Source of the DNA: an uncultured Flavobacteriales bacterium
GTDB lineage: Bacteria; Bacteroidota; Bacteroidia; Flavobacteriales_G; JALEGO01
DNA: 64,000 nucleotides
Assembly: GCA_964403835.1 (NCBI GenBank)
Contig: CAYOHR010000004.1
Location: forward strand, 44,553-108,552
Direction of reading: 5' to 3'
The notes below the pieces were generated by a model, which had not been told where the DNA came from, searched no databases, and saw only the letters and a program-made list of their open reading frames with translations. The translations under genes were made by a program, and so were the position numbers. Below are positions 14,319-53,403 of this stretch, in pieces; the first letter of the stretch is position 1, and every line of letters begins with the position of its first letter.

Positions 14319-16415
14319 TTACCGAATTAATAGAAAAGAACCTCTTCGTTGTAAAACATCTCCCGCCGAATTTTTAAATTGTAAAAAATACGAATAGTAT
14401 CCAATGGGTGCATTGTAACCCCCTCCATCCCAACCATCTAAAGGGTTTGTTGTTGAGTAAATAGAAGTGCCCCATCGATCATAAATGGTAAATTCGTATT
14501 CTCTTTTATCTACAAAACTAATGATGGGTTTAAATACATCGTTAATATCGTCGAAGTCAGGAGTAAACGCTGTCGGAACCCATACTATTTCTTCCAGTCC
14601 TAAACATACTTTATTGGAGTTACATGATTCTTTAAATCCGTAAACATTATTGGTTTTACTCTCTTGTGCGTTTATGTAGTAACAAAATTTCCCGTTATTT
14701 TCCAGTAATTTCTCCACTTCATCTTTAAATTTAGAAGTGGTATTTACAAAACTATCTAGTTCAACAAAATTTTGATTATTGTTTAAACTTCTATATAAAA
14801 CATATTGATTTACTCTGCTTCCAGCATGTTCAAAGCCTCCATAGCCGTTCCATTTTAGAGATGTGTAAAATTCCAAATCATTTTTTTCACCGGTTATTCT
14901 TACCGTATTGGAGGTATCAGAAAAATAATATTCATTTTTACAGCTATCTAGGGCACTAATCATATAGTAATAAATATTAGTATCTGCTTGTACATTGCGG
15001 TCTTTAAATTTATAAAGGGTATCTGTTTTTGTAGGTAAGATGGTATCTACCGGTTCAAATAAAGAATCGGGGTGAATGGACTTTTTTATTAAATAACCCG
15101 TAGCCTCACTTTTTTTAGGAACATAAAATTTGATCACAACTTGATCTGAGTCTTCCACATGTAAACATGTGATATAAATATCCTTTGGAAGCTCTATTGA
15201 AGAGGTTTTTAAACATACTTGGTTCGATGAAGAGGTTGTAGAAAATCCCACTTGTTTTGCTCTTATGGTATAACAATATTGCGTGCCGGGCTTCACATTT
15301 TGATGAGTATATTCATTCACATTTCCATCCACAGTGCCAACCCTTTTCCATGGGCCGCCATTTTCTTGAGCCTCAATATAATAATCTTGCACAGCATTCC
15401 ATCCAACATAAGGAGTCCAGGTTAAATCAATTTTCTTTTCACAATTATTAGGAACTGCTTTTACAAATATGGTGGAGTGTAAAATACCTGTTGAACTGGT
15501 GTTATAAGAGAGTGGATTTCCGTTAGCACAGGTATCTATGGCTGCTACCCCGTATTTTACCGAATGTGTATTTGGATTTCCATTGGGATCTATGAAAGAA
15601 ATGCTGTTTTTTCCTATCACGGTTGCAATAATTACTTGGTCACGCACTATCACGTATCCTCTAATATCTCCGGAGCCGTCCGGTGTCCATTTTAAGAAAA
15701 CCTCATTGCTGGCCGGATTAACACTAATGGAATCAATTAAGGGTGTGCCGGGTGCCCGTTTATCAAAGATTAATTTTTTAGCTAAAGAAGAAACAGATTT
15801 ACAACCTGAAACATCGGTTTGTTCAACCGTAAAATATAAAGTATCGTTACATACTTTTTTTGTATCAGCGTAGGTTTCAGTGCCAAAAAATGTATTTCCA
15901 ACGTTTGCCCAAACGCCATTAAATGCTTTCCGACGATGAATATCATACGAATTACTTGTCGAGGCTAATTTTGGAGTTTTTATGGGATTCCAATCAATGC
16001 TTGCAAATCCATCCGCAACAGGCAGGTTATTATTTACTGTCAAAAACATGGTTTGAAGTGTGTCGGAAGCAGGAGTATACAAGGGGTTTGCACCTGAAGT
16101 ATACTCAACAATTAACATGTAGTATCTTATACCTAAATGAGCATTGGCTCCTGTGTGCGTAAATGAAGTGGTTGCTATATTGGGTATAAAGTCGGGCAGT
16201 AAAGTAAAATTAACGTTGTCGGTTGAATACCAAATTTGATATTGATCAAATGCATTTCCGGGGGCAGGAACATATTGCATCCAAGTAATGGTTACATCAC
16301 CATTTGGAGCCACAGCCAAACATCGAATGTCGGGCTTGGATTGTGAGAATAAAAATTTGCTAGATAATGTAAGTAAAAAGCAAATTGTAATAACCTTGAT
16401 ATGAAGATTCATCAA
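14319..16415 (-). CDS. T9SS cargo with FN3-like repeats and type B (gliding-motility-associated) CTD
   Basis: Signal peptide, repeated W...Y.I...F...D..A....YY.I.A.D.C modules, C-terminal VPTAFTPDFDDINDVF..IYDRWG..GWDG..Y. Confidence 0.85.
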   Translation of the reverse strand: MMNLHIKVITICFLLTLSSKFLFSQSKPDIRCLAVAPNGDVTITWMQYVPAPGNAFDQYQIWYSTDNVNFTLLPDFIPNIATTSFTHTGANAHLGIRYYMLIVEYTSGANPLYTPASDTLQTMFLTVNNNLPVADGFASIDWNPIKTPKLASTSNSYDIHRRKAFNGVWANVGNTFFGTETYADTKKVCNDTLYFTVEQTDVSGCKSVSSLAKKLIFDKRAPGTPLIDSISVNPASNEVFLKWTPDGSGDIRGYVIVRDQVIIATVIGKNSISFIDPNGNPNTHSVKYGVAAIDTCANGNPLSYNTSSTGILHSTIFVKAVPNNCEKKIDLTWTPYVGWNAVQDYYIEAQENGGPWKRVGTVDGNVNEYTHQNVKPGTQYCYTIRAKQVGFSTTSSSNQVCLKTSSIELPKDIYITCLHVEDSDQVVIKFYVPKKSEATGYLIKKSIHPDSLFEPVDTILPTKTDTLYKFKDRNVQADTNIYYYMISALDSCKNEYYFSDTSNTVRITGEKNDLEFYTSLKWNGYGGFEHAGSRVNQYVLYRSLNNNQNFVELDSFVNTTSKFKDEVEKLLENNGKFCYYINAQESKTNNVYGFKESCNSNKVCLGLEEIVWVPTAFTPDFDDINDVFKPIISFVDKREYEFTIYDRWGTSIYSTTNPLDGWDGGGYNAPIGYYSYFLQFKNSAGDVLQRRGSFLLIR

Positions 16416-21030: not shown

Positions 21031-21083
21031 AAATAAAAAGAGGGGCTTTTGACCCCTCTTTCAAATTTCACAATGCAAAAATA
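21031..21083 (-). promoter_or_regulatory. rimP leader: -7 box TATTTTTG (21076-21083), then a GC hairpin with U-tract before the ATG
   Basis: Minus strand reads TATTTTTG ... AAAGAGGGG-TCAAAAG-CCCCTCTTT-TTATTT-ATG. Confidence 0.6.
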
Positions 21084-21125: not shown

Positions 21126-24100
21126 TTATTGAGCAACCAATTTTACTTGCGAAAGAACTTCTTTAGTTGAAGTATTAATCAGCTTTCCAATATAAGTTCC
21201 TGCACTTAAGCGATCATTCATATTTACTCTATTACTTAATACAGGGTATGACTGAATAGAACGTCCTTGTAAATCATACACTACAAAAGAAATGGTTTCA
21301 AAATTTGTTAAATTTTTGAACTCAACAAAGGTATTTTTTACAAATGGATTTGGATAGGCCACCATATAAATATTGGACTGCAAATCAGATTTTATCTGTG
21401 TTGTTAAACTATCCTCTACAAACACAACTAAGGTGTCTGATTTAACGCAGCCATGATCGTTAGATACATTCACCAAATAATAATTGTACCCTCCATTAAC
21501 CACCGTAGCTATTGGATTTGCAATAGTATCGTTATTCAATGTAGCTCCTGTCCAAGCATAGTGATATGTTCCTGAAGGCGTAACCGAAGTTGTAAATTGA
21601 ACTTGATCATTTAATAAAACAGTATCTTCTGCTTGAGTAACACTCAAAGTAAACCCGGGAACAACATGAACTGTAAAGGAAGATGTTCCTTGGCAATTAC
21701 CAATAACATCTGTTGTTGTTAAAGTGTAAGTAACGTCTGAAGATGGCCAAACATAAGTGCTAGCTCCATGTGGGTCAGATAAGTTTGTTGTAGGATTCCA
21801 TTGATATAAAATATTGCTATCTACACAATGCATGGTGTAATTCCATATACTCTGACCATTTAGAGGGTCAGGACCATCATTATACAAAATGTTTCCAGAA
21901 TATCCCGAAATAGAGAAACTCTCTTCGCTAGGGTAGGCTCCGCTAGTGTAAGATAAAGAAACCTGATCTCCATCATTTAAATAAACATATTCGGCACTTT
22001 GGAATCCGTTAGGCAATGTGAATGTATTGTGTAACACTCCATTTACAAATATTTCGAGCGAAGCTCCATTCCATCCATCACCATAGCTATCATACAGATC
22101 TATCGCTAATTGGCAAGAATTGAAAAAGTCAGTAGCTTGTAATAAAGCACTATCTCCTGAACATAATATAGAGTCTCCTGTAATAATATAATTTCTAGCA
22201 TGGCCATTAGATACCATCACTTTTAAGCTAGTGTCTGTTTTAGTGCAACCCTCGTTAGTTATTTCAAGGGAAATAGTATTTAAACCGGGATGATTAAATA
22301 CACCTACCGGATTAGTGATAGTATCAGCATTAAATAACCCTAAAGAACTCCATTGATAAGAATAAGATCCAGCAGGGCTTACAGACACATTAAATTGAAC
22401 ACTATCATGCAAACAAATGCTGTCATCGCTAGCAGTAATTTGATACGTGAAATTTGAACCTATATGCACTAATATAGTAGTTGAATCAACACAATTTCCC
22501 ACCGTTTCAGTAGCAACAATCGTATATAAGGTGCTTGAAGTTGGAGATACCCAAACACTATCAGAAGTACTAGAACTTAATCCGTTGCTTGGAGTCCATA
22601 AATAACTAATTTGTGAGCTACACATCCATGTATGTTGCCAAACCTGCAATCCATTTAAAGGAGTAGGTCCATCCGAAAATAAGATGCTGCCTTGCGCGTC
22701 TAAAACTTGGTAGCTTTCTTCTGTAGGATACAAGCCACTAGTGAAATCAATACTTACTACATCACCTAAGTTTAAATGAATTGTATCTAGTAATTCAAAA
22801 CCGGTTGCTATAGTGTACGATTGATATAAGGATCCATTAATGTTTAAATTAAGATTAGCACCGTTCCATCCATCACCATAATTATCACTTAATACTAAAA
22901 CCATATAACAACCGATATTGCCATTGTTCACAACTAATAAAGTAGAATCGCCTGTACATATATTAGTATCTCCAACAATAGAAATATCCGGTGAAATATT
23001 ATTAGAAACTAAAACAGAAACACTGTCTTTTTTGTTACAACCCCCTGCGCTTGCAACATCCACATAGAACGTATTTACACCAGATTGAGATAAATAAGCA
23101 ATTGGGTTGTGAGTAATATCATTATTTAATAAAAAGGAAGGGGTCCATTGATATGAATAGCTCCCGGCAGGACTAACCGATACATTTAACTGGTTTTCAC
23201 TATACAAACAAGAACTTAAATCGGCAGCGCTCGCGTTAATGGTGAAATTAGGTACTACTGAAACGTGATACTGAACTGTATCTGCACATCCATTTAAAGA
23301 AGATGCAATGACCGTATATGTTGTGCTTACAGTTGGAGAAACTATTACCGTATCATTTGTAGTGGTATTTAAACCTATAGCAGGAGACCATGCATAAGAT
23401 ACATCTGCTCCGGTTAAAGCGATATTCACATTGTCAATCGCCCAGTTATCAAATCCAATACCCGAAAAAAGTGGTTGTGACCATCTAAATCTGGTAGAAG
23501 TAGTTTGGGCAGCCAAGGGAATGTTTTCTGAAATGGGAGTAAAATTAGGATAATTTGCAACTGCATACTGATTAATATTAAACCAATTGACACCGCCATC
23601 ATAAGAATATTGAAGAATAACATCTTCACCTACTTCTGCTGCGTCGCAGGAATCATTTCCTTGTGCTATATATAAAGAAAAATTAATAGTTCCACCTAAT
23701 GATGCATTTAAATCAATGGTTTCAGCAAGTCGGCTAAAATCATCATTAAAATATAAAGCATTACCCGAAACCGAACCACAAGTAGAAGCCGTAATTCCTG
23801 TGGTAGAATACCAATTGGAAAGATGAATGGGATCAAACTGATCAACCAATTGAGCATTACCATATTGTGAATTCACCACAATCATTGAACTGTCACCTTG
23901 ACAAAGTGTACTATCCCCATGAAAAGTTAAAAGTGGGATTGAATTAGTCGAAACAGTTACAACAACACTATCATTTTTGCTACAACCATTGTGACTGGTT
24001 ATATTAAAATACAGGGGCGTTGTTCCTGAACTTGTAAAGGTAGCCCTCGGGTGAAATGAAGCGTGATTATCTATCAGTGCGTTTCCTGTCCAATCAATAG

Positions 24101-25643
24101 TGTAACTTCCTGAAGGATTGGGTGTAACATTAAAAACTACATCATCATTTAAGCAAATAGATGCATTGCTTGGTTGAACTGCATATGTAAAGTCAGCTAC
24201 TACAACAACTTGAACAGTATCTACGTTAGCACATCCACCTTGTAAATTGCTTGTTACTACATAAGTGGTTGTTGCAGAAGGGGTTGCAATTGGGTCGGCG
24301 CATGTGTCACAAGAAAAATTAGTGCCTATCACGATGGGTGAACCGGATATAGATTGCCATGTAAATACAGTACCTCCCGCAGCATGCAAATGAGCTTCGC
24401 TCGAGCTGCCTGAAGTTCCACAGATAAAACGATCAGGACCGGCATTCGTAGATTTTACAATTTGAATGTGATAAACAAATGTATTGGATCCTGAAATAGG
24501 ACATACATTATCAGAAACCAGAACACTAAAAGAAGCATTGTTTGTATGGGATTGTGCTGGTAATTGAATGTTGTATTGAACAGTTAATGGATTTACACCA
24601 GTAATGTTAAAGGAAGATCCTGGAAAAACCTGTGCTAGATTAGTCATGATGCTTAAGCTATCTAGGCTATTAGCATCAACATACGTACTATTAAAAGAAA
24701 TCATTGAGCCTTCACATGCTTCTATTGTGTTATTATTAATTAATATAGCATTACTTACATTTTGAATAACTCCTGAGCTTGCCGAAGGATTTGAGTTAGA
24801 ACAATTTACCGCATAAATTTCTATATCTCGCATCACGGTTCCGATCAAGTTTCCTTGATGATCATATTCTGTAACCTGGTAAACTAAAACATAATTACCA
24901 ATAGTATTAGCAGTAAAGCTAATGTTCCCATTCGCATGATCAATGGTTATTCCGTCGATAGGATTAACACATGAATAAGGAGAAACATAAGTTATTGGAT
25001 TTCCCCATTCATCGCGGGCACAAATCAATTCATAATACAAAGAATCTCCATCCGCTTCTGATACACCGCCGTTGATGGTTATATTCTGACCAATGCACGC
25101 ATAAGGAATAGGAGGTGAATTAAATATGGGTGAGTTATTACATGTTTGTATAGAATTATTTAAAAAGGCATCAACAAGTAATCCCCAGTTTGCGCCATCT
25201 ATGTTTACTGAAGTATTTCTGGCGTAAGTAGTTAGGCTTATATACCAATCAGAACAAGGAGTTAAATTTACCTGAGCTTGATAAATAGACTCGATAAGGC
25301 CGGGTTGAGTTCCACCGTTACAAATCGAATTGTTTATTTCAGAAGCACATAGAGGTGCTACTTCTTTTGCATGAAAAAAAGAAAGAGGAACATGTAAAGT
25401 TCCGCATGAGCTAATTATATCTACTAATTGTTCGGTTGAATCGATATAGGAACTGACCGAACAATCTTGAAAAATTTTTAATTGTATAGTATAGTTGTTC
25501 CCGCCTGTGCAGATATACGTAATTTCGCCGCCAGCATAATGGCTAGCATTCATCTTGGTAATAAATACCAAAGAGAATAGAAAGGAAAAAAGGAAAAATG
25601 ATTTTTTCATAGTAGATCTAAAAATGTTTGTGCAAATGTACAA
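21126..25643 (-). CDS. Large T9SS cargo (type A CTD) with Ig/PKD-like repeats, a reelin-subrepeat-like domain and two DxYGDGWNG modules
   Basis: N-terminal ASHYAGGEITY, repeated GSY.Y.W....L modules, SYDGGVNW Asp-box, C-terminal YPNPF..VYDLQGR..G.Y. Confidence 0.85.
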   Translation of the reverse strand: MYICTNIFRSTMKKSFFLFSFLFSLVFITKMNASHYAGGEITYICTGGNNYTIQLKIFQDCSVSSYIDSTEQLVDIISSCGTLHVPLSFFHAKEVAPLCASEINNSICNGGTQPGLIESIYQAQVNLTPCSDWYISLTTYARNTSVNIDGANWGLLVDAFLNNSIQTCNNSPIFNSPPIPYACIGQNITINGGVSEADGDSLYYELICARDEWGNPITYVSPYSCVNPIDGITIDHANGNISFTANTIGNYVLVYQVTEYDHQGNLIGTVMRDIEIYAVNCSNSNPSASSGVIQNVSNAILINNNTIEACEGSMISFNSTYVDANSLDSLSIMTNLAQVFPGSSFNITGVNPLTVQYNIQLPAQSHTNNASFSVLVSDNVCPISGSNTFVYHIQIVKSTNAGPDRFICGTSGSSSEAHLHAAGGTVFTWQSISGSPIVIGTNFSCDTCADPIATPSATTTYVVTSNLQGGCANVDTVQVVVVADFTYAVQPSNASICLNDDVVFNVTPNPSGSYTIDWTGNALIDNHASFHPRATFTSSGTTPLYFNITSHNGCSKNDSVVVTVSTNSIPLLTFHGDSTLCQGDSSMIVVNSQYGNAQLVDQFDPIHLSNWYSTTGITASTCGSVSGNALYFNDDFSRLAETIDLNASLGGTINFSLYIAQGNDSCDAAEVGEDVILQYSYDGGVNWFNINQYAVANYPNFTPISENIPLAAQTTSTRFRWSQPLFSGIGFDNWAIDNVNIALTGADVSYAWSPAIGLNTTTNDTVIVSPTVSTTYTVIASSLNGCADTVQYHVSVVPNFTINASAADLSSCLYSENQLNVSVSPAGSYSYQWTPSFLLNNDITHNPIAYLSQSGVNTFYVDVASAGGCNKKDSVSVLVSNNISPDISIVGDTNICTGDSTLLVVNNGNIGCYMVLVLSDNYGDGWNGANLNLNINGSLYQSYTIATGFELLDTIHLNLGDVVSIDFTSGLYPTEESYQVLDAQGSILFSDGPTPLNGLQVWQHTWMCSSQISYLWTPSNGLSSSTSDSVWVSPTSSTLYTIVATETVGNCVDSTTILVHIGSNFTYQITASDDSICLHDSVQFNVSVSPAGSYSYQWSSLGLFNADTITNPVGVFNHPGLNTISLEITNEGCTKTDTSLKVMVSNGHARNYIITGDSILCSGDSALLQATDFFNSCQLAIDLYDSYGDGWNGASLEIFVNGVLHNTFTLPNGFQSAEYVYLNDGDQVSLSYTSGAYPSEESFSISGYSGNILYNDGPDPLNGQSIWNYTMHCVDSNILYQWNPTTNLSDPHGASTYVWPSSDVTYTLTTTDVIGNCQGTSSFTVHVVPGFTLSVTQAEDTVLLNDQVQFTTSVTPSGTYHYAWTGATLNNDTIANPIATVVNGGYNYYLVNVSNDHGCVKSDTLVVFVEDSLTTQIKSDLQSNIYMVAYPNPFVKNTFVEFKNLTNFETISFVVYDLQGRSIQSYPVLSNRVNMNDRLSAGTYIGKLINTSTKEVLSQVKLVAQ

Positions 25644-29013: not shown

Positions 29014-30231
29014 ATGAAAAAAGTATTGGTTTTTATTGCTATTGCAATCTATTCTTTCTCTTCTTATTCTCAATATGACTGCAGTTATGGCCGTTTTGTA
29101 ACCCGAAATTTTTTCACTACCGATGTGGTTACTACAAACATTTTGTATGGATCAAATGTGATTGTAGGTGGAGTTAATCAGCAACAATTAAAATTAGATT
29201 TTTTTGAACCCAGCAATGATACTTTAAGCACACGTCCTTTAATTATTTTGGCTTTTCCGGGGTCTTTTGTTTCTGGGTCACGCACAGATATGCATCCGAT
29301 TTGTCATGAATATACTAAAATGGGCTATACTTGCGCAACCATTGATTATAGAACAGGCTTTTTTTTACCGGATTCTGTAAATACGGCAAAAGCAGTGGTT
29401 CGGGCAATGCATGATATGAGAGCTGCGGTTCGTTTTTTCTACAAACAGGCTCAAAATGGAAATCCATATAAAATTGATACTAATAAAATTATTGTAGGTG
29501 GAATATCTGCCGGAGCTATAACTGCTTTACACGTGGCGTTTTTAGATCAGTCATATGAAACAGTACCGGCTATTAATTTAAATAATTTAGGCGGAATAGA
29601 AGGAATTAGCGGAAATCAGGGATATTCATCTCGGGTACACGCAGTTATAAATTTAAGTGGAGCAATAGGCGATACCAGCTGGATTGAACCCCAGGATTAT
29701 AAACCTGTTTTTAGTGTACACGATATTGGAGATGATGTAGTTCCTTATGGAACGGAGGAAGTTTATTTTGGAGGGACTATTCCAACAGGACTTACTGCCA
29801 GCGGAAGTCATGATATAAATGAGCGATTGCTTGATATATCAGCGCCTACCCAATTATTATCGATTAATTCAAACACACATATTTCTTACCAAAACAATGT
29901 TCCCATGTTTGATTCAATCTTTAATTTGAGTATGAATTTTTTGGCAACGTATGTTATTTGTAATAATATTACCGCAATTTCTTCTCAAGAAATAAAGGAA
30001 GAAAAAGTGGTCATGTATCCTAATCCTAGCTCTGGTAATATTTCTATTACCAGTAAGGATAAAATAAAGAAAATTGAGCTTTATTCCCTGAACGGAAAAA
30101 AGGTATTGGAAAAAACTTTTGCGTTCAATCAAATGAATATTTCTCATTTGCCAGAAGGCGTTTACTTCAATAAAGTTTATTTTGAAAACGGATCTTCAAA
30201 AACCTTCAAAATACAGAAGTTAAACAACTAA
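29014..30231 (+). CDS. Secreted alpha/beta-hydrolase (esterase) with T9SS type A CTD
   Basis: PGSFVSG oxyanion region, IDYR, GISAG nucleophile elbow, NLSGA, GSH; C-terminal YPNPS..LYSLNG..GVY. Confidence 0.87.
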   Translation: MKKVLVFIAIAIYSFSSYSQYDCSYGRFVTRNFFTTDVVTTNILYGSNVIVGGVNQQQLKLDFFEPSNDTLSTRPLIILAFPGSFVSGSRTDMHPICHEYTKMGYTCATIDYRTGFFLPDSVNTAKAVVRAMHDMRAAVRFFYKQAQNGNPYKIDTNKIIVGGISAGAITALHVAFLDQSYETVPAINLNNLGGIEGISGNQGYSSRVHAVINLSGAIGDTSWIEPQDYKPVFSVHDIGDDVVPYGTEEVYFGGTIPTGLTASGSHDINERLLDISAPTQLLSINSNTHISYQNNVPMFDSIFNLSMNFLATYVICNNITAISSQEIKEEKVVMYPNPSSGNISITSKDKIKKIELYSLNGKKVLEKTFAFNQMNISHLPEGVYFNKVYFENGSSKTFKIQKLNN

Positions 30232-31248: not shown

Positions 31249-34200
31249 ATGAATAAATATTTCCTTACTCTATCAAGCTTATTTTTAATATCTATAAAAA
31301 TATTTTCTGCTTCTTTTACAGCTACACAATCAGGCAATTGGAACATTGGAACAACTTGGGGGGGCTTATGTGCTGCGGGTTGTACAGCAGGAGTTGATTT
31401 TCCCGGAACCGGAGATGATGTTATCATTGACGCCTTTGATATTAGTGTAACGGCCGATGCAACTTGCCTAACTATCACTGTAAATCCCGATAATACAAGC
31501 TTAAGTATAAATTCTACGTTTTTGCTTACAGTAGAAGATTTTATTGAAATTTATTCTGCAGCTGACGCCAGTGCATTTGACTTTAATATAGATGGTTACC
31601 TTTATGTAGAAAATTATATCCTGATGGACGTTGGTAACAGTGGAACGTATAATATGAATATTAATTCAGGAGGTAAACTAAATATTAATTCAGCCACTGG
31701 TACCAGTCTTTTTAAATCAAGAAAGTCAGGCGGCGGGGCTATTATTAATATCAATGTCAATGATACCTTTATTACGAATGGAAATTTAACTTTACAAGGA
31801 CAAACGCATACCGATGATTCGGTAAATATGTTTGTGAATGCGCGCACAGAAATTTTGGGTACAACAGGGCTAAAGTTGACTTCAACGAGTGCAAATGCAG
31901 ATGTTCTTTTGGAGTTAAATGACACCTTAGTTTGTTTCGGAGCCTTAACATTAAATACTTCTTCTAACCAAAATGATGTAAGGCTAGATATGACAAATAC
32001 AAATAATGCATTTCTTGATTTGCAAGGTCAATTATCTATCACAAACCAAGGTGGTTTAATTGATGCTAGTGCTGCAACAAATACCTTTTTTCGTTTTTCC
32101 GGGTCAGCTGGTCAAAATGTAAAAATGGGATCGGGGTATGAATATGATAATTTGATTATTGCCAATACGAGCGTTTCAGGCGCTGCTTTAACAAGTGGAG
32201 TTACTACTTCGGGGGTATTAGGAAATATTACCATTGAAAATAACTCTAAGCTGGTTGCCGGCTCTAATGATATTACTTTTGGAGGAGATTTAACCATTAA
32301 TGGTAATGGAACCATTACACAAACAAGCACAAACAAAATAAGTTTTGCAGGTTCTGCTCAGCAAACTATATACGGAACCTTTGTGTTTCCGGGAATTGCA
32401 GAAGTTGATAATTCATCCATGAATGGACTTACTTTAGATGGCTCTTCTGCCGTAACTTTTAATGACTTGAATATTTTAGCTGCCCGAAAATTTAATAGTG
32501 CAGGTGCTAATTATATAATCAAAGAAGATATAACAAATAATGGAGGAACATATACCGCAAATGTAGGTGATACCACTACTTTTAGTGGAACCAGTCTTCA
32601 GACCGTAACAGGTACTATCCCTTTTGATCATACCATTATTGCCAATTCATCAGGTGTAAATTTAGCCACAGGAGGTGATGCTATTTCTTTTAATAATTTA
32701 ACAATTAATAGTGGTTGTTTTTTAGACCCAGATGCGAATGATTTTTCCGTAAGAGGAAATTGGATCAATAATAATGCAGAAGCAGGTTTTACCCCTGATG
32801 CAGGTTGTCGAGTTCGATTTAATGGAAGTACAGCACAAACTATTACTGGTTCGGACACTACTGATTTTCAAGATATTAGTGTTGAAAATACTTCAACTGG
32901 ACTTACCGCAACAAACCCCATAGATATTATTGGAGTTTTAGATGTACAAGATGGCGCTTTTAATGGGAATTCTGTTGCACGCTTGGTATCCAATTCTTCG
33001 GCTACCGCAGTTATAGCAGATTTATCGGATGGTACCCCGGATAACCCTGCGGTTACTAACATCATTGTAGAAAGATATATGAATGAGCATGCTGGCTCTC
33101 CAGGATGGAACTTTGTTGCATCCCCTTTAACCAATACAGTATTAGATGATTGGGATGATGATTTGTATACTACCGGAAATGTTGGTAGCGATGATCCTCA
33201 ATGGTTTTTTTCAATACAAGGATGGGACGAAGCGGCATGTGCGTCTACTACTCCTGATTTAACTACACAAAATACAAATAATGGATCAGATCAATCAGGT
33301 TGGTTCATTTATGAAAATAGCGGGGTGACAATAGATGCCACAGGAAGTATTAATCAGGGTATTGTAAGTATAGCCGGATTAACATGTGGAGTAGGTTGTG
33401 CTTTTGGAGATGGATGGCATGTTTTAGGAAATCCGTATGCTGCGCATGTGACTTGGGATAATGTAACATTGACCAATATAAGTGGTGCAGGCGGAGGATC
33501 TGCCTATGTTTTACAAAATGACAATAGTGGAAATTTTATAGAATATGACCACAGCACTCCAACAGACATCTTAGCGTCTGGCGAAGGTTTTTATGTGCAG
33601 GTTGCTGCTGGTATGGTAGGAGAAGTACGATTTGACGAAAATGATAAAACCAATTCAAATACTCCGGATAATTTTAACAGTGTAAAACTGGTAGGAAACA
33701 TAGAGCCGGTCTTAAAAATTAATATGTTGGCTGATGGTACGCGTTCTGATTTTACCAAAATTGGTTTGCGAGATAACGCTGCTAAAGGATATGAGTGGTT
33801 TAACGAAACAACTAAAATGGGCAATGCAAATAACCTGTTAAACATAGCAACCGTTGTGGATGATATCAAAGTTTCAAGAAATTCTATTCCTTCGGATGTT
33901 GATAGTATCGTTATTCCTATTGTTTTATACAGACAAAATAATGCTTTAAGTACTACTAATCAATATGATTTGACTTTTAATGATGTAGATGCTTTTTTAG
34001 ATCAAAATAAATGTATGACCTTGATTGATTCAACTGATTTAAGCTCAACAATTATTGATACCGAAGGTCAAACGCATTCAACCACCATGATGGATGATGG
34101 TGTGGCTCGATTATTCTTACATGTTAGCTCACCTTTAACTATTTCTTCAACCAATCCTACCTGTTTTGATTTGCCAAACGCAACTGCACGGGTAACAGGC

Positions 34201-35565
34201 AAAGGAAACGGACCTTTTAACTATACTTGGCAAAATGCAAACGGAAATACTGTTCGAACTACAACAGGTGTTTTCGGAGCTGATTCATTAAGTAATGTTA
34301 CGGAGGGTATTTATACTGTAATTGTAACAAACAATGAAGGTTGTGGAACAGTACGTGCTAAAATTGAGCTAATGGCGCCTGTTTCGCCGAACTATACTAC
34401 TTTAACTTCTGAAGATGTTACTTGTCATGGAGGAAATGATGGAACAGCCTCTGCCCATATTTTTACTGGAAATGCAGGTCGAACATTTTTATGGTCAAAT
34501 GGAAATAGCGATTCGCTAGCAACAAATTTATCGGCAGGAACGTATACAGTTTCTATAACCGATAGTACTGGTTGTTCATTCAGCAAGAGTATTATGATTA
34601 ATGATGCAATATCAAATATTACCCAAAAATCTAAAGCAGATATTACCTGTTTTGGAAGCACCAATGGAGGTATTTTGCTTCAAATGAATGGAGACCTAAG
34701 TAATTATACTTTTGGATGGTCAAATGGAGTTACTACGCATGATGTATATGGTTTAAGCGCCGGAACTTATTATGTTACGGTTTCTCATTCGAATGGTTGT
34801 GTTGAGACAGATTCAGTTACCATAGATCAACCTGAAGAAATTAACAGCAATGCAGTTATACAAAATGCAAGTTGTTTTGGTTTAATGGATGGTACTATTA
34901 CCTTAAATACAACAGGTGGTGTTGCTCCTTATGATATTAATTTGGCGGGATATAACACCAGCTTTTTAGATTCGTTAACTCCTGGTAGTTATACTTTATT
35001 TATCATGGACCAAAATCAATGCCAAAAAAGCCTTGTATTAAATGTGACCGAGCCTCCTTTAGTGGATGCCGCTTTTAGCACTGCTAATGATACTTTTTAT
35101 GTAAATGAACCGGTTATTTTTACAAATACTTCTGCCGGAGCTACCCAATCCGATTGGAATTTTGGTGATGCAAGCACTTCATCTATTACAGATCCAATTC
35201 ACACGTATTTAGCTTCAGGAACCTATTCAGTTCGTTTATTGTCTTCTCAAAATGGGCAATGTGCCGATTCTACCGATCAAATGCTTTATATATTGGATGA
35301 ATTAGTTTCAGTGAATGCTAATGGCGATAAAGATTTTATAAAAATTACCAGAACAGATAATACTTTGATTATTAATACTTCATTTAATAAACCTGAATTT
35401 TTGAAAATTAAAGTTTATAATGCATTAGGACAAGATTTAGTAAGAAGCACCGAAGAAACCGTTTCTATATCTACGATTAAAATAGCCTTGCCAGATACAA
35501 AAGGCATGTATATTTTATCAATTTATAAAAATGATGAGATAATAACGAAGCAAGTAATCAGATAA
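31249..35565 (+). CDS. Large T9SS cargo (type A CTD): G8-like N-terminus, beta-helical repeats, SprB repeats, PKD domain
   Basis: TATQSGNWNIGTTW..PGTGDDVII; repeated F.GSA.QTI.G; VERYM..WNFVASP; GWHVLGNPY; DVTCHGGNDG..YTVSITD.GC; FTNTSAGA..DWNFGD; VYNALGQ..GMY. Confidence 0.85.
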   Translation: MNKYFLTLSSLFLISIKIFSASFTATQSGNWNIGTTWGGLCAAGCTAGVDFPGTGDDVIIDAFDISVTADATCLTITVNPDNTSLSINSTFLLTVEDFIEIYSAADASAFDFNIDGYLYVENYILMDVGNSGTYNMNINSGGKLNINSATGTSLFKSRKSGGGAIININVNDTFITNGNLTLQGQTHTDDSVNMFVNARTEILGTTGLKLTSTSANADVLLELNDTLVCFGALTLNTSSNQNDVRLDMTNTNNAFLDLQGQLSITNQGGLIDASAATNTFFRFSGSAGQNVKMGSGYEYDNLIIANTSVSGAALTSGVTTSGVLGNITIENNSKLVAGSNDITFGGDLTINGNGTITQTSTNKISFAGSAQQTIYGTFVFPGIAEVDNSSMNGLTLDGSSAVTFNDLNILAARKFNSAGANYIIKEDITNNGGTYTANVGDTTTFSGTSLQTVTGTIPFDHTIIANSSGVNLATGGDAISFNNLTINSGCFLDPDANDFSVRGNWINNNAEAGFTPDAGCRVRFNGSTAQTITGSDTTDFQDISVENTSTGLTATNPIDIIGVLDVQDGAFNGNSVARLVSNSSATAVIADLSDGTPDNPAVTNIIVERYMNEHAGSPGWNFVASPLTNTVLDDWDDDLYTTGNVGSDDPQWFFSIQGWDEAACASTTPDLTTQNTNNGSDQSGWFIYENSGVTIDATGSINQGIVSIAGLTCGVGCAFGDGWHVLGNPYAAHVTWDNVTLTNISGAGGGSAYVLQNDNSGNFIEYDHSTPTDILASGEGFYVQVAAGMVGEVRFDENDKTNSNTPDNFNSVKLVGNIEPVLKINMLADGTRSDFTKIGLRDNAAKGYEWFNETTKMGNANNLLNIATVVDDIKVSRNSIPSDVDSIVIPIVLYRQNNALSTTNQYDLTFNDVDAFLDQNKCMTLIDSTDLSSTIIDTEGQTHSTTMMDDGVARLFLHVSSPLTISSTNPTCFDLPNATARVTGKGNGPFNYTWQNANGNTVRTTTGVFGADSLSNVTEGIYTVIVTNNEGCGTVRAKIELMAPVSPNYTTLTSEDVTCHGGNDGTASAHIFTGNAGRTFLWSNGNSDSLATNLSAGTYTVSITDSTGCSFSKSIMINDAISNITQKSKADITCFGSTNGGILLQMNGDLSNYTFGWSNGVTTHDVYGLSAGTYYVTVSHSNGCVETDSVTIDQPEEINSNAVIQNASCFGLMDGTITLNTTGGVAPYDINLAGYNTSFLDSLTPGSYTLFIMDQNQCQKSLVLNVTEPPLVDAAFSTANDTFYVNEPVIFTNTSAGATQSDWNFGDASTSSITDPIHTYLASGTYSVRLLSSQNGQCADSTDQMLYILDELVSVNANGDKDFIKITRTDNTLIINTSFNKPEFLKIKVYNALGQDLVRSTEETVSISTIKIALPDTKGMYILSIYKNDEIITKQVIR

Positions 35566-53272: not shown

Positions 53273-53280
53273 TATATTTG
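53273..53280 (+). promoter_or_regulatory. -7 promoter box (TATATTTG) for the SRP RNA
   Basis: Exact TAnnTTTG match 3 nt before the SRP RNA terminal stem. Confidence 0.75.
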
Positions 53281-53283
53281 CAC

Positions 53284-53383
53284 GGGGTAAGTCCTGTACG
53301 ACCAGCTCCTGCTGAACTCCCCCAGGCTGGGAACGGAGCAAGGGTAGGTGGTTGTAGCGGTGCGATGCAGGTCAGCTTACCCC
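53284..53383 (+). ncRNA. ffs: Small bacterial SRP RNA (4.5S)
   Basis: Terminal stem GGGGTAAG/CTTACCCC; conserved helix-8 core CAGG-CTG-GGAA-CGG-AGCA; GC-rich 100-nt hairpin with its own promoter. Confidence 0.9.
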
Positions 53384-53403
53384 TTCTTTAAATTATAAGT
53401 ACT

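What the first reader, a model, noticed from the sequence alone, without database searches (positions are those of the whole stretch)
23421..23840. Reelin-subrepeat-like domain inside a bacterial T9SS-secreted protein
Seen, in order: TCGSVSGNALYFND, DSCDAAEVGEDVILQYSYDGGVNW (Asp-box), IPLAAQTTSTRFRWSQP, DNWAIDNVNI. Known: animal reelin subrepeats have the same ordered motifs (ALYF, C..P...EGVLLxYSxDGGxxW, LPxxAxTxxTRxRWWQP, WAxDN). Inference: a bacterial member of the reelin-repeat family inserted as a single module among Ig-like repeats, possibly a glycan- or receptor-binding adhesin or a clue to the origin of the fold.
Basis: partly seen in the sequence, partly recalled or inferred. Interest (0 to 1): 0.65.

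Follow-up and report, generated by a model that had tools for sequence, protein, structure and literature searches.

The report
Bacterial stand-alone reelin subrepeat-B domain
A secreted surface protein of a Bacteroidota bacterium carries one true homologue of the "subrepeat B" module of the animal brain protein reelin; this module is common in bacteria and already caught by a Pfam model, so the finding is real but not a new kind of thing.

Summary
All four motifs lie in order on the minus strand at 23421-23840, inside a 1494-aa ORF (21126-25610, minus).

The segment scores 95 bits against Pfam PF21471 (Reelin_subrepeat-B, cutoff 27). In a sequence search of the PDB it hits only reelin chains.

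It is not a full reelin repeat: there is no EGF module and no subrepeat A. It is one "head" module placed between Ig-like sets in a T9SS cargo protein.

The domain is widespread. An exhaustive search found 1481 representative clusters, in Bacteroidota, Cyanobacteria, Chloroflexota, Patescibacteria and a gammaproteobacterial MAG. Copy number is 1-12 per protein in named bacterial proteins, and 35 in one unnamed metagenome protein. It always sits with adhesin-type modules and never with enzymes. Eukaryotic hits are reelins plus sponge and choanoflagellate proteins.

The most likely role is a calcium-stabilised binding module on a surface adhesin. This is inferred, not shown. The direction of transfer between bacteria and eukaryotes is unresolved. 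I found no paper that discusses bacterial homologues.

The parts
21126..25610 (-). Complete gene for a 1494-aa secreted multidomain protein (ATG at 25610, stop at 21126-21128). An in-frame TTG 11 codons upstream, at 25643, is the mechanical ORF start.
   Evidence: ORF list and translation. The representative P0014 of the exhaustive search is this protein, 1494 aa at 100% identity.
25545..25610 (-). Signal peptide, aa 1-22 (MKKSFFLFSFLFSLVFITKMNA | SHY...).
   Evidence: Read from the translation. The cleavage site is inferred from the positive N-terminus, hydrophobic core and MNA motif; no predictor was run.
24456..25544 (-). N-terminal region of about 360 aa with no family assignment. It starts with SHYAGGEITYxC.
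   Evidence: No Pfam hit at E<=10. The same N-terminal motif is found in P0013, P0037, P0100 and P0116.
23868..24443 (-). Ig-like set 1, aa about 390-581.
   Evidence: jackhmmer self-search gives repeat matches at aa 433-517 and 524-581. Weak Pfam Ig_7 hit at aa 479-554, E=0.019.
23415..23852 (-). Reelin subrepeat-B-like jelly-roll domain, aa 587-732. The Pfam envelope is aa 606-730, window 23421-23795. It has a Cys pair C607/C651 and an Asp-box S665-W672.
   Evidence: PF21471 at 95.4 bits. Only reelin chains are hit in the PDB. AF2 pLDDT 91.4 with 11 strands. Foldseek top 8 hits are reelin, TM 0.80-0.86. 26 consensus positions are shared with animal B subrepeats.
22899..23396 (-). Ig-like set 2, aa 739-904.
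   Evidence: Self-search matches at aa 746-835 (131 bits) and 844-904.
22620..22910 (-). First copy of a Cys-bracketed 'D-x-[YF]-G-D-G-W-N-G' beta-sandwich module, aa 901-997. Unassigned.
   Evidence: No Pfam or PDB sequence hit. AF2 pLDDT 89.8 with 8 strands. No PDB fold match at E below 0.02.
22131..22604 (-). Ig-like set 3, aa 1003-1160.
   Evidence: Self-search matches at aa 1010-1100 (123 bits) and 1104-1160.
21825..22115 (-). Second copy of the YGDGWNG module, aa 1166-1262.
   Evidence: Motif positions. Alignment A3 shows 42% identity to the first copy.
21387..21803 (-). Ig-like set 4, aa 1270-1408.
   Evidence: Self-search matches at aa 1281-1365 (99 bits) and 1375-1408.
21129..21356 (-). 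T9SS type A C-terminal sorting domain. The match covers aa 1419-1484 and the part runs to the last residue, 1494.
   Evidence: TIGR04183 at 33.1 bits against a cutoff of 23. Pfam PF18962 scores 23 bits, below its cutoff of 27.
21036..21062 (-). Terminator-like hairpin (11-bp stem followed by a T run) between the stop codon and rimP.
   Evidence: Pattern scan. This is a consensus match only.

Best explanation
Window 23415-23852 (minus strand) encodes a true homologue of the reelin subrepeat-B domain. It is an 11-stranded beta jelly-roll with an Asp-box hairpin and a conserved cysteine pair.

The domain is one of three globular 'head' modules that alternate with Ig-like sets in a 1494-aa protein. 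The other two heads are copies of an unassigned YGDGWNG beta-sandwich. The protein has a Sec signal peptide and a type A T9SS sorting domain. It is therefore exported across the outer membrane of a Bacteroidota cell and, by analogy with other type A cargo, is either anchored on the surface or released.

The most likely role of the reelin-like module is to act as a (probably calcium-stabilised) binding module of a surface adhesin, held away from the cell on the Ig-like stalk. The ligand is unknown; a glycan or a surface polymer is the best guess.

What is shown: the homology, the fold, the domain order, the secretion signals, and the wide bacterial distribution. What is inferred: calcium binding, disulfide formation, surface display, and any binding activity.
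For: Homology: PF21471 at 95.4 bits against a cutoff of 27. phmmer against the PDB returns only five distinct reelin sequences, with alignments to B subrepeats at 58-65 bits.

Fold: AF2 pLDDT 91.4, pTM 0.87, 11 strands. Foldseek top 8 hits are all reelin, with E 6e-13 to 7e-12, TM 0.80-0.86, rmsd 1.8-2.1 A and 30-34% identity. The next hits are CBM4-2, a porphyran CBM and CBM16, with E about 3e-5 to 1e-4, TM 0.49-0.57 and 12-15% identity.

Shared signature: 26 positions have the same consensus residue in bacterial domains and in animal B subrepeats. These include both cysteines, the Asp-box S/G/W and the P..A....T.FRW.Q and W..D motifs.

Secretion: TIGR04183 above cutoff. Three other T9SS cargo genes lie in the window.

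Bacterial chromosome: the flanking genes are rimP-nusA-infB, hemB, fabG and fabH, and a Bacteroidales-type SRP RNA is present.

Adhesin context: in 17 bacterial homologues scanned, the domain sits with CUB, SprB, PKD, fn3, Big, FG-GAP, Kelch, TSP3_bac, PPC, CARDB and T9SS sorting domains, and with no catalytic domain.

Conserved architecture: many Flavobacteriales and Bacteroidota loci carry the domain at about aa 625-800 of a 1400-1700-aa protein.

Binding precedent: the nearest non-reelin folds are ligand-binding jelly-rolls, namely CBMs, the Eph ligand-binding domain and the gingipain K3 adhesin.
Against: No ligand, calcium site or disulfide was tested.

The gene has no informative operon context. 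It is a single gene, followed by a terminator-like hairpin, among housekeeping genes.

In reelin, the B subrepeat is not known as a ligand-binding unit in its own right. Its Asp-box packs against subrepeat A (PMC2716378), and no subrepeat A exists here.

Mean identity among the sampled bacterial copies is high, at 41%. This could reflect structural constraint as much as a conserved ligand.
Confidence: 0.6

Rival explanations
1. The domain is a passive structural module. It would act as a rigid, calcium-stabilised spacer that adds length or stiffness to a surface fibre and has no ligand of its own.
For: Some proteins carry 12 tandem copies (P0003) or 35 (P0002), like beads on a string. In reelin the subrepeats build a rod, and the Asp-boxes serve inter-module packing (PMC2716378; PMC4882317). 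Most positions conserved across both kingdoms look like core or hairpin residues: F, W, C, G and the Asp-box.
Against: In the window protein, the cheaper Ig-like modules already form the stalk. The reelin-like and YGDGW modules are single insertions at regular positions, which is more typical of functional heads. The closest non-reelin folds are binding modules.
Confidence: 0.2
2. The domain mediates protein-protein contacts. These could be self-association of the adhesin, homophilic cell-cell contact, or docking onto a neighbouring module, as subrepeat B docks onto subrepeat A and EGF in reelin.
For: [quoted passage not shown] The Asp-box is kept in 91-95% of the sampled bacterial domains even though no A partner exists. 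Multi-copy bacterial proteins exist.
Against: There is no A-type partner or EGF module in this protein. Retention of the Asp-box is equally explained by an intrinsic hairpin-stabilising role (PMC4882317, citing Copley et al. 2001).
Confidence: 0.15
3. The gene is a recent acquisition from an animal, or the segment is eukaryotic contamination. It would be a host-mimicry module copied from reelin.
For: Identity to animal B subrepeats is unusually high for a bacterium-animal pair, at 30-38%.
Against: The gene lies in a 34.5% GC bacterial chromosome between hemB and rimP-nusA-infB. The bacterial domains are much closer to each other (41%) than to any animal subrepeat (29%), and they sit on the other side of a nearly clean split in the NJ tree. 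The domain occurs in free-living environmental MAGs of at least five phyla. There is no EGF or subrepeat A.
Confidence: 0.03
4. The similarity is only a generic jelly-roll/CBM resemblance plus a chance Asp-box.
For: Reelin subrepeats belong to the broad galactose-binding-like/CBM fold class (PMC4882317), and CBMs do appear in the Foldseek list.
Against: Seven orders of magnitude in E-value separate reelin from the best CBM. No CBM family appears in the Pfam scan at E<=1. 26 consensus positions are shared.
Confidence: 0.01

Closest known systems
Reelin subrepeat B (Pfam PF21471; structures 2DDU, 2E26, 3A7Q, 5B4X, 6A48, 7LYU)
   Same: The sequence family is the same (95 bits). Both have an 11-strand jelly-roll. 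The Asp-box is in the same hairpin and the cysteine pair is at equivalent positions. Both share the DxF...W...CG..SGxxLxF...R..T, (V)xLxYSxDxGxxW, (I/L)PxxAxxxxTxFRWxQ and WAxD motifs.
   Different: Here the domain stands alone between Ig-like sets. In reelin it follows an EGF module and packs against subrepeat A in a horseshoe. The host protein is a bacterial T9SS cargo, not an extracellular matrix glycoprotein, and it lacks the reeler domain and the eight-repeat rod. I did not compare the reelin residues that contact ApoER2/VLDLR.
Reelin subrepeat A and the N-terminal subrepeat-like domains of reelin
   Same: Same fold and a recognisable sequence relationship. The bacterial profile hits them at 13-73 bits.
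   Different: They are clearly more distant than B. Subrepeat A matches are weak and often split in two by an insertion. The window domain scores 1-23 bits against R5A and R6A, versus 58-62 bits against R5B and R6B.
Type B carbohydrate-binding modules with a jelly-roll fold (CBM4-2, CBM16, a porphyran-binding CBM)
   Same: Same general beta-sandwich class. They are the next-best structural matches, and they provide a plausible functional analogy as binding modules appended to secreted proteins.
   Different: Only 12-15% identity, TM 0.49-0.57 and rmsd 4-6 A. No Pfam CBM hit. The bacterial reelin-like domains scanned are never next to a glycoside hydrolase.
Large T9SS-exported adhesins of Bacteroidota (SprB-type and CHU-type multidomain surface proteins)
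   Same: Signal peptide, long arrays of Ig-like/PKD/SprB modules and a C-terminal sorting domain. Such proteins are also encoded elsewhere in this window.
   Different: This protein has a type A, not a type B (CHU_C), sorting domain. It carries the reelin-like head and the YGDGWNG heads. No role in gliding is implied by its context.

Membership tests
Reelin_subrepeat-B domain family (Pfam PF21471) | Score above the curated gathering threshold of the family HMM over nearly its full length | tested here: met
   95.4 bits against a cutoff of 27, model positions 3-126 of 127.
Reelin_subrepeat-B domain family (Pfam PF21471) | 11-stranded two-sheet jelly-roll that superposes on solved reelin subrepeats | tested here: met
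   The AF2 model has 11 strands and pLDDT 91.4. TM 0.80-0.86 and rmsd 1.8-2.1 A to 7LYU, 6A48, 3A7Q, 2E26, 2DDU and 5B4X. The 11-strand description comes from PMC4882317.
Reelin_subrepeat-B domain family (Pfam PF21471) | Asp-box / BNR hairpin (x-x-S/T-x-D/N-x-G-x-x-W) | tested here: met
   Q-Y-S-Y-D-G-G-V-N-W at aa 663-672. S, G and W are conserved in 89-95% of the sampled bacterial domains and in 87-91% of animal B domains. The motif definition comes from PMC4882317.
Reelin_subrepeat-B domain family (Pfam PF21471) | Intradomain disulfide that 'zips' the subrepeat (SS2 type, cysteines about 40 residues apart) | tested here: inconclusive
   C607 and C651 are 44 residues apart. They fall in the columns where bacterial sequences (85% and 83%) and animal B sequences (98% and 66%) have Cys. 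The spacing matches C2544-C2584 and similar pairs listed in PMC6908669. Bond formation was not measured. Some bacterial members have no cysteine at all.
Reelin_subrepeat-B domain family (Pfam PF21471) | Structural calcium site | not testable with these tools
   Acidic residues in DQFD and DNWAIDN are conserved; D722 is at 96% in bacteria and 98% in animal B. No coordinates or metal prediction were available.
Reelin repeat (subrepeat A - EGF - subrepeat B unit) | EGF-like module directly upstream of B, with a subrepeat A before it | tested here: not met
   No EGF or second subrepeat appears in the Pfam scan. The flanks are Ig-like sets. An EGF Cys-pattern search was negative for this protein, while it found 8 EGF modules in each full-length reelin.
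Reelin (the protein; orthologue of RELN) | Reeler domain, eight reelin repeats, about 3400 aa, receptor-binding central fragment | tested here: not met
   The protein is 1494 aa with one subrepeat and no reeler domain, and it has bacterial secretion signals.
T9SS type A cargo | C-terminal sorting domain above the NCBIfam cutoff, plus an N-terminal signal peptide | tested here: met
   TIGR04183 at 33.1 bits against a cutoff of 23, aa 1419-1483. The signal peptide was read by eye. Actual export was not tested.
Carbohydrate-binding modules (CAZy CBM families) | Sequence membership in a CBM family, or demonstrated sugar binding | tested here: not met
   No CBM family in Pfam at E<=1. The only link is a remote fold similarity. 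Sugar binding was not tested.

The most novel reading that the evidence does not exclude
The reelin subrepeat may be a bacterial invention. It is a common head module of bacterial surface proteins in several phyla. It could have been taken up by a bacterivorous ancestor of choanoflagellates and animals, then duplicated around an EGF module to build reelin repeats.

If so, stand-alone bacterial B-type modules such as this one are the closest living stand-ins for the ancestral unit. They would be a simple system in which to find an intrinsic ligand-binding activity of reelin subrepeats.

The evidence does not exclude this. The domain is in at least five bacterial phyla. Among the eukaryotic hits that could be named, it was seen only in Holozoa. 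Subrepeats A and B group together against the bacterial domains. One sponge domain and one choanoflagellate domain fall on the bacterial side of the NJ tree.

The tree is weakly supported, non-holozoan eukaryotes were not searched by name, and the opposite direction of transfer is not ruled out.
Probability: 0.35. Interest if true: 0.6.

Novelty: new member of a known kind. Interest (0 to 1): 0.42.

Why it matters
Reelin is usually treated as an animal extracellular-matrix protein, and a late-evolving one (PMC3308698). This gene and its relatives show that its B-type building block also exists as a stand-alone module in a large family of bacterial surface proteins, at 30-35% identity to the animal copies.

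Three things follow. First, small single-domain bacterial versions could be expressed and used to ask what the fold binds and what the Asp-box, the cysteine pair and the putative calcium site do when no subrepeat A is present. Second, there is now a concrete data set for asking where reelin repeats came from. Third, there is an annotation gap: NCBI names such proteins only 'T9SS type A sorting domain-containing protein' or 'hypothetical protein', and NCBIfam has no model for the domain.

The finding does not reveal a new mechanism.

Tried and rejected
1. Word-index homologue searches, with the single domain and then with the 35-sequence profile, returned only 1 and 9 short metagenomic fragments. 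They were useless for distribution or architecture, so the exhaustive HMMER search was used instead.

2. An exact look-up of the window protein in public assemblies found nothing on record. The source organism is therefore not named. Bacteroidota is inferred from the T9SS cargo genes, SprB/CHU_C domains and the SRP RNA type.

3. A blastp self-comparison for internal repeats printed nothing useful. It was replaced by a jackhmmer self-search.

4. Six full-text literature searches found no paper on bacterial reelin-subrepeat homologues. The original structure paper, PMC1538547, is not held, so the structural features were taken from PMC4882317, PMC2716378 and PMC6908669.

5. The NJ phylogeny was meant to resolve the direction of transfer. 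A nearly clean eukaryote/bacteria split appears in the point estimate. Only 19 of 100 bootstrap replicates kept it under my strict criterion (at least 68 of the 73 eukaryotic domains on one side with at most 5 bacterial ones), so no direction is claimed.

6. Contamination and recent animal-to-bacterium transfer were rejected on gene context and distances.

7. A generic CBM or LamG explanation was rejected.

8. I planned a search for conserved gene neighbours across the 44 related loci, but only catalogued the carrier ORFs. No neighbour clustering was run.
Full report

Yes. Window 21126-25643 on the minus strand is one open reading frame. From the first ATG at 25610 it encodes 1494 residues. 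The plus strand of the span is full of stop codons, so nothing is encoded there.

**2. Is it a reelin-type domain?**

Three independent tests say yes.

- Profile. Pfam PF21471 (Reelin_subrepeat-B) matches aa 606-730 over model positions 3-126 of 127. The score is 95.4 bits against a gathering cutoff of 27, E=2.8e-27. No CBM, LamG or MAM family appears even at E<=1.
- Sequence against solved structures. A phmmer search of all PDB sequences returns only five distinct sequences, all reelin: 3A7Q/5B4X, 2E26, 6A48, 2DDU and 7LYU. The best single-domain i-E-values are 1e-16 to 9e-15, and they fall on the B subrepeats. The A subrepeats of the same chains score only 1-23 bits.
- Fold. An AlphaFold2 model built from a 35-sequence alignment of bacterial homologues has mean pLDDT 91.4, pTM 0.87 and 11 strands. 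This is the strand count described for reelin subrepeats (PMC4882317). The top eight Foldseek hits against the PDB are all reelin, with E 5.6e-13 to 7e-12, TM 0.80-0.86, rmsd 1.8-2.1 A and 30-34% identity. There is then a gap of seven orders of magnitude to CBM4-2, a porphyran-binding CBM and CBM16, which have E 3e-5 to 1e-4, TM 0.49-0.57, rmsd 4-6 A and 12-15% identity.

**3. Which features are shared?**

I aligned 218 bacterial domains and 47 animal or holozoan B subrepeats to one profile. In 26 columns both groups have the same consensus residue. These include both cysteines (C607 and C651 in this protein), the Asp-box S665/G669/W672, R623, P694, A697, the T.FRW.Q motif, and W719 and D722 of WAIDN.

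The cysteine spacing of 44 residues matches the 'zipping' disulfides listed for reelin subrepeats, for example C2544-C2584 (PMC6908669). I could not measure disulfide formation or calcium binding.

The Asp-box is kept in more than 90% of the sampled bacterial domains, although these have no subrepeat A to pack against. This favours an intrinsic, hairpin-stabilising role for the motif. The interdomain contact seen in reelin (PMC2716378) would then be secondary.

**4. What it is not**

It is not a reelin repeat and not a reelin orthologue. There is no EGF module, no subrepeat A and no reeler domain. The flanks are Ig-like sets.

**5. The protein as a whole**

The domain order is as follows.

- Signal peptide, aa 1-22.
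- An unassigned N-terminal region of about 360 aa, with no Pfam hit.
- Four Ig-like sets, each about 140-190 aa.
- Set 1 is followed by the reelin-like domain.
- Sets 2 and 3 are each followed by a copy of a Cys-bracketed module of about 97 aa with an invariant D-x-[YF]-G-D-G-W-N-G motif.
- Set 4 is followed by a type A T9SS sorting domain, TIGR04183 at 33.1 bits against a cutoff of 23.

This looks like a stalk of Ig-like modules displaying three globular heads.

A terminator-like hairpin with an 11-bp stem lies 64 nt after the stop codon. The neighbours are housekeeping genes: hemB and fabG upstream, rimP-nusA-infB downstream. The gene is therefore probably its own transcription unit, and its context says nothing about function.

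Several things place the window in a Bacteroidota chromosome. Its GC content is 34.5%. It encodes three more T9SS cargo genes. It carries a Bacteroidales-type small SRP RNA. This rules out eukaryotic contamination.

**6. Distribution**

An exhaustive HMMER search of 1.84 billion representative proteins found 1481 clusters at E<=1e-3, 661 at E<=1e-10 and 155 at E<=1e-30.

Among the best 150, about 15 carry EGF patterns. Those that have names are reelin or reelin-like proteins of a hemichordate, horseshoe crab, nemertean, crinoid, amphioxus and hagfish. There is also an unnamed krill protein, a sponge (Sycon) protein and a choanoflagellate (Salpingoeca infusionum) protein.

The rest lack EGF and look bacterial. 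They have signal peptides, T9SS tails and 1-5 copies of the domain. One Bacteroidota MAG protein, MBX3100897.1, has 12 copies. One unnamed metagenome protein has 35.

A strict pattern scan of GTDB species genomes gave 44 loci. Most are Flavobacteriales, Chitinophagales or Cytophagales MAGs. The others are three cyanobacteria (Richelia sinica FACHB-800, Pleurocapsa, Okeania), a gammaproteobacterial MAG and a Saccharibacteria MAG. Named cluster members add Anaerolineae and Saccharimonadales.

In 17 homologues scanned with Pfam, every one scored at least 158 bits on PF21471. The partner domains were CUB, SprB, PKD, fn3, Big, FG-GAP, Kelch, TSP3_bac, PPC, CARDB and T9SS tails, and never an enzyme.

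Many Flavobacteriales and Bacteroidota loci carry the domain at about aa 625-800 of a 1400-1700-aa protein. The window protein therefore belongs to a conserved architecture.

**7. Relationship to reelin**

A profile of the bacterial domains scores animal B subrepeats at 80-122 bits. It scores A subrepeats at 13-55 bits, often split in two by an insertion. It scores the N-terminal subrepeat-like domains at 40-73 bits.

Mean identities are 41% among bacterial domains, 29% between bacterial and animal B, 32% among animal B, and 25% between animal A and B.

A neighbour-joining tree puts 71 of 73 eukaryotic domains (A, B and others together) on one side of a single split. Only two sequences lacking my EGF tag sit with them, and one of those looks like a vertebrate reelin fragment. 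One sponge domain and one choanoflagellate domain fall on the bacterial side. Only 19 of 100 bootstrap replicates kept this split under my strict criterion, which was at least 68 of the 73 eukaryotic domains on one side with at most 5 bacterial ones.

I conclude three things. There is no recent animal-to-bacterium transfer. The A/B duplication probably happened after the bacterial and eukaryotic lineages of the domain separated. The direction of the ancient transfer is not resolved.

**8. How it most likely works**

What is shown: the homology, the fold, the architecture and the secretion signals.

What is inferred: after Sec export and T9SS transport the protein is displayed on the cell surface or released. 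The reelin-like jelly-roll, probably stabilised by calcium and a disulfide, then serves as a binding head, with a glycan or surface polymer as the most likely ligand.

I give this combined statement 0.6. Homology alone I put at about 0.97.

The rivals are a passive structural spacer (0.2), a protein-protein or self-association module (0.15), recent acquisition from an animal or host mimicry (0.03), and a chance or generic fold resemblance (0.01).

**9. Novelty**

The domain is a clear member of an existing Pfam family, and precomputed Pfam labels already tag metagenomic homologues. The window protein is therefore a new member of a known kind.

On the other hand, NCBIfam has no model for the domain. 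NCBI names for homologues do not mention it. Six full-text searches found no paper that discusses bacterial reelin-subrepeat homologues. A standard review lists reelin among later-evolving matrix proteins (PMC3308698).

A reelin specialist would probably be mildly to moderately surprised by the size of the bacterial family. A domain-database curator would not be. I set interest at 0.42.

**10. Side observation**

The YGDGWNG module has no Pfam or PDB sequence hit. It models with confidence as an 8-strand sandwich, pLDDT 89.8. It has no PDB fold match better than E=0.028 and TM 0.42. It recurs in five other proteins that also carry the reelin-like domain. It may be the less charted part of this gene.

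Noticed in passing
window 22620-22910 and 21825-22115 (minus strand); aa 901-997 and 1166-1262 of the same protein: Two copies of a Cys-bracketed beta-sandwich module of about 97 aa with an invariant D-x-[YF]-G-D-G-W-N-G motif. It has no Pfam hit at E<=10 beyond noise and no PDB sequence hit. AF2 gives pLDDT 89.8, but the best PDB fold match is only E=0.028 with TM<=0.42. It is also present in P0004, P0090, P0116, P0141 and P0149. It looks like an undescribed domain family.
   Followed up: partly
window 24456-25544 (minus strand); aa 23-385: The N-terminal region of about 360 aa, starting SHYAGGEITYxC, has no Pfam match. The same N-terminal motif opens several other large proteins that carry the reelin-like domain: P0013, P0037, P0100 and P0116.
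   Followed up: no
proteins P0012, P0024, P0026 (representatives): These T9SS cargo proteins combine an N-terminal CUB domain (PF00431, 57-74 bits) with 2-3 reelin-B-like domains. That puts two modules usually thought of as animal extracellular domains in one bacterial protein.
   Followed up: no
proteins P0003 and P0002/P0008: P0003 (MBX3100897.1, Bacteroidota MAG, T9SS type A) has 12 tandem reelin-B-like domains. P0002 (5983 aa) and P0008 (4090 aa), from unnamed ENA metagenome contigs, have 35 and 20 tandem copies in a three-domain super-repeat, with no EGF. Their organism of origin is unknown.
   Followed up: partly
window 14319-16415 (-), 29014-30231 (+), 31249-35565 (+): Three more T9SS cargo genes lie in the same window: an fn3 protein with a type B CHU_C sorting domain, a BD-FAE esterase with a Por_Secre_tail, and a 1438-aa SprB-repeat/PKD protein with a Por_Secre_tail.
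   Followed up: no
window 53278-53386 (+): A Bacteroidales-type small SRP RNA (RF04183, 97.9 bits) is the only Rfam hit in the window. No tRNA genes were found in the 64 kb.
   Followed up: no
loci L010 and protein P0066: The reelin-B-like domain also occurs in MAGs labelled Saccharibacteria/Saccharimonadales, on contigs of 352 kb and 66 kb. These organisms have very small genomes, so a surface protein of 1300-2200 aa there is notable if the binning is right.
   Followed up: no
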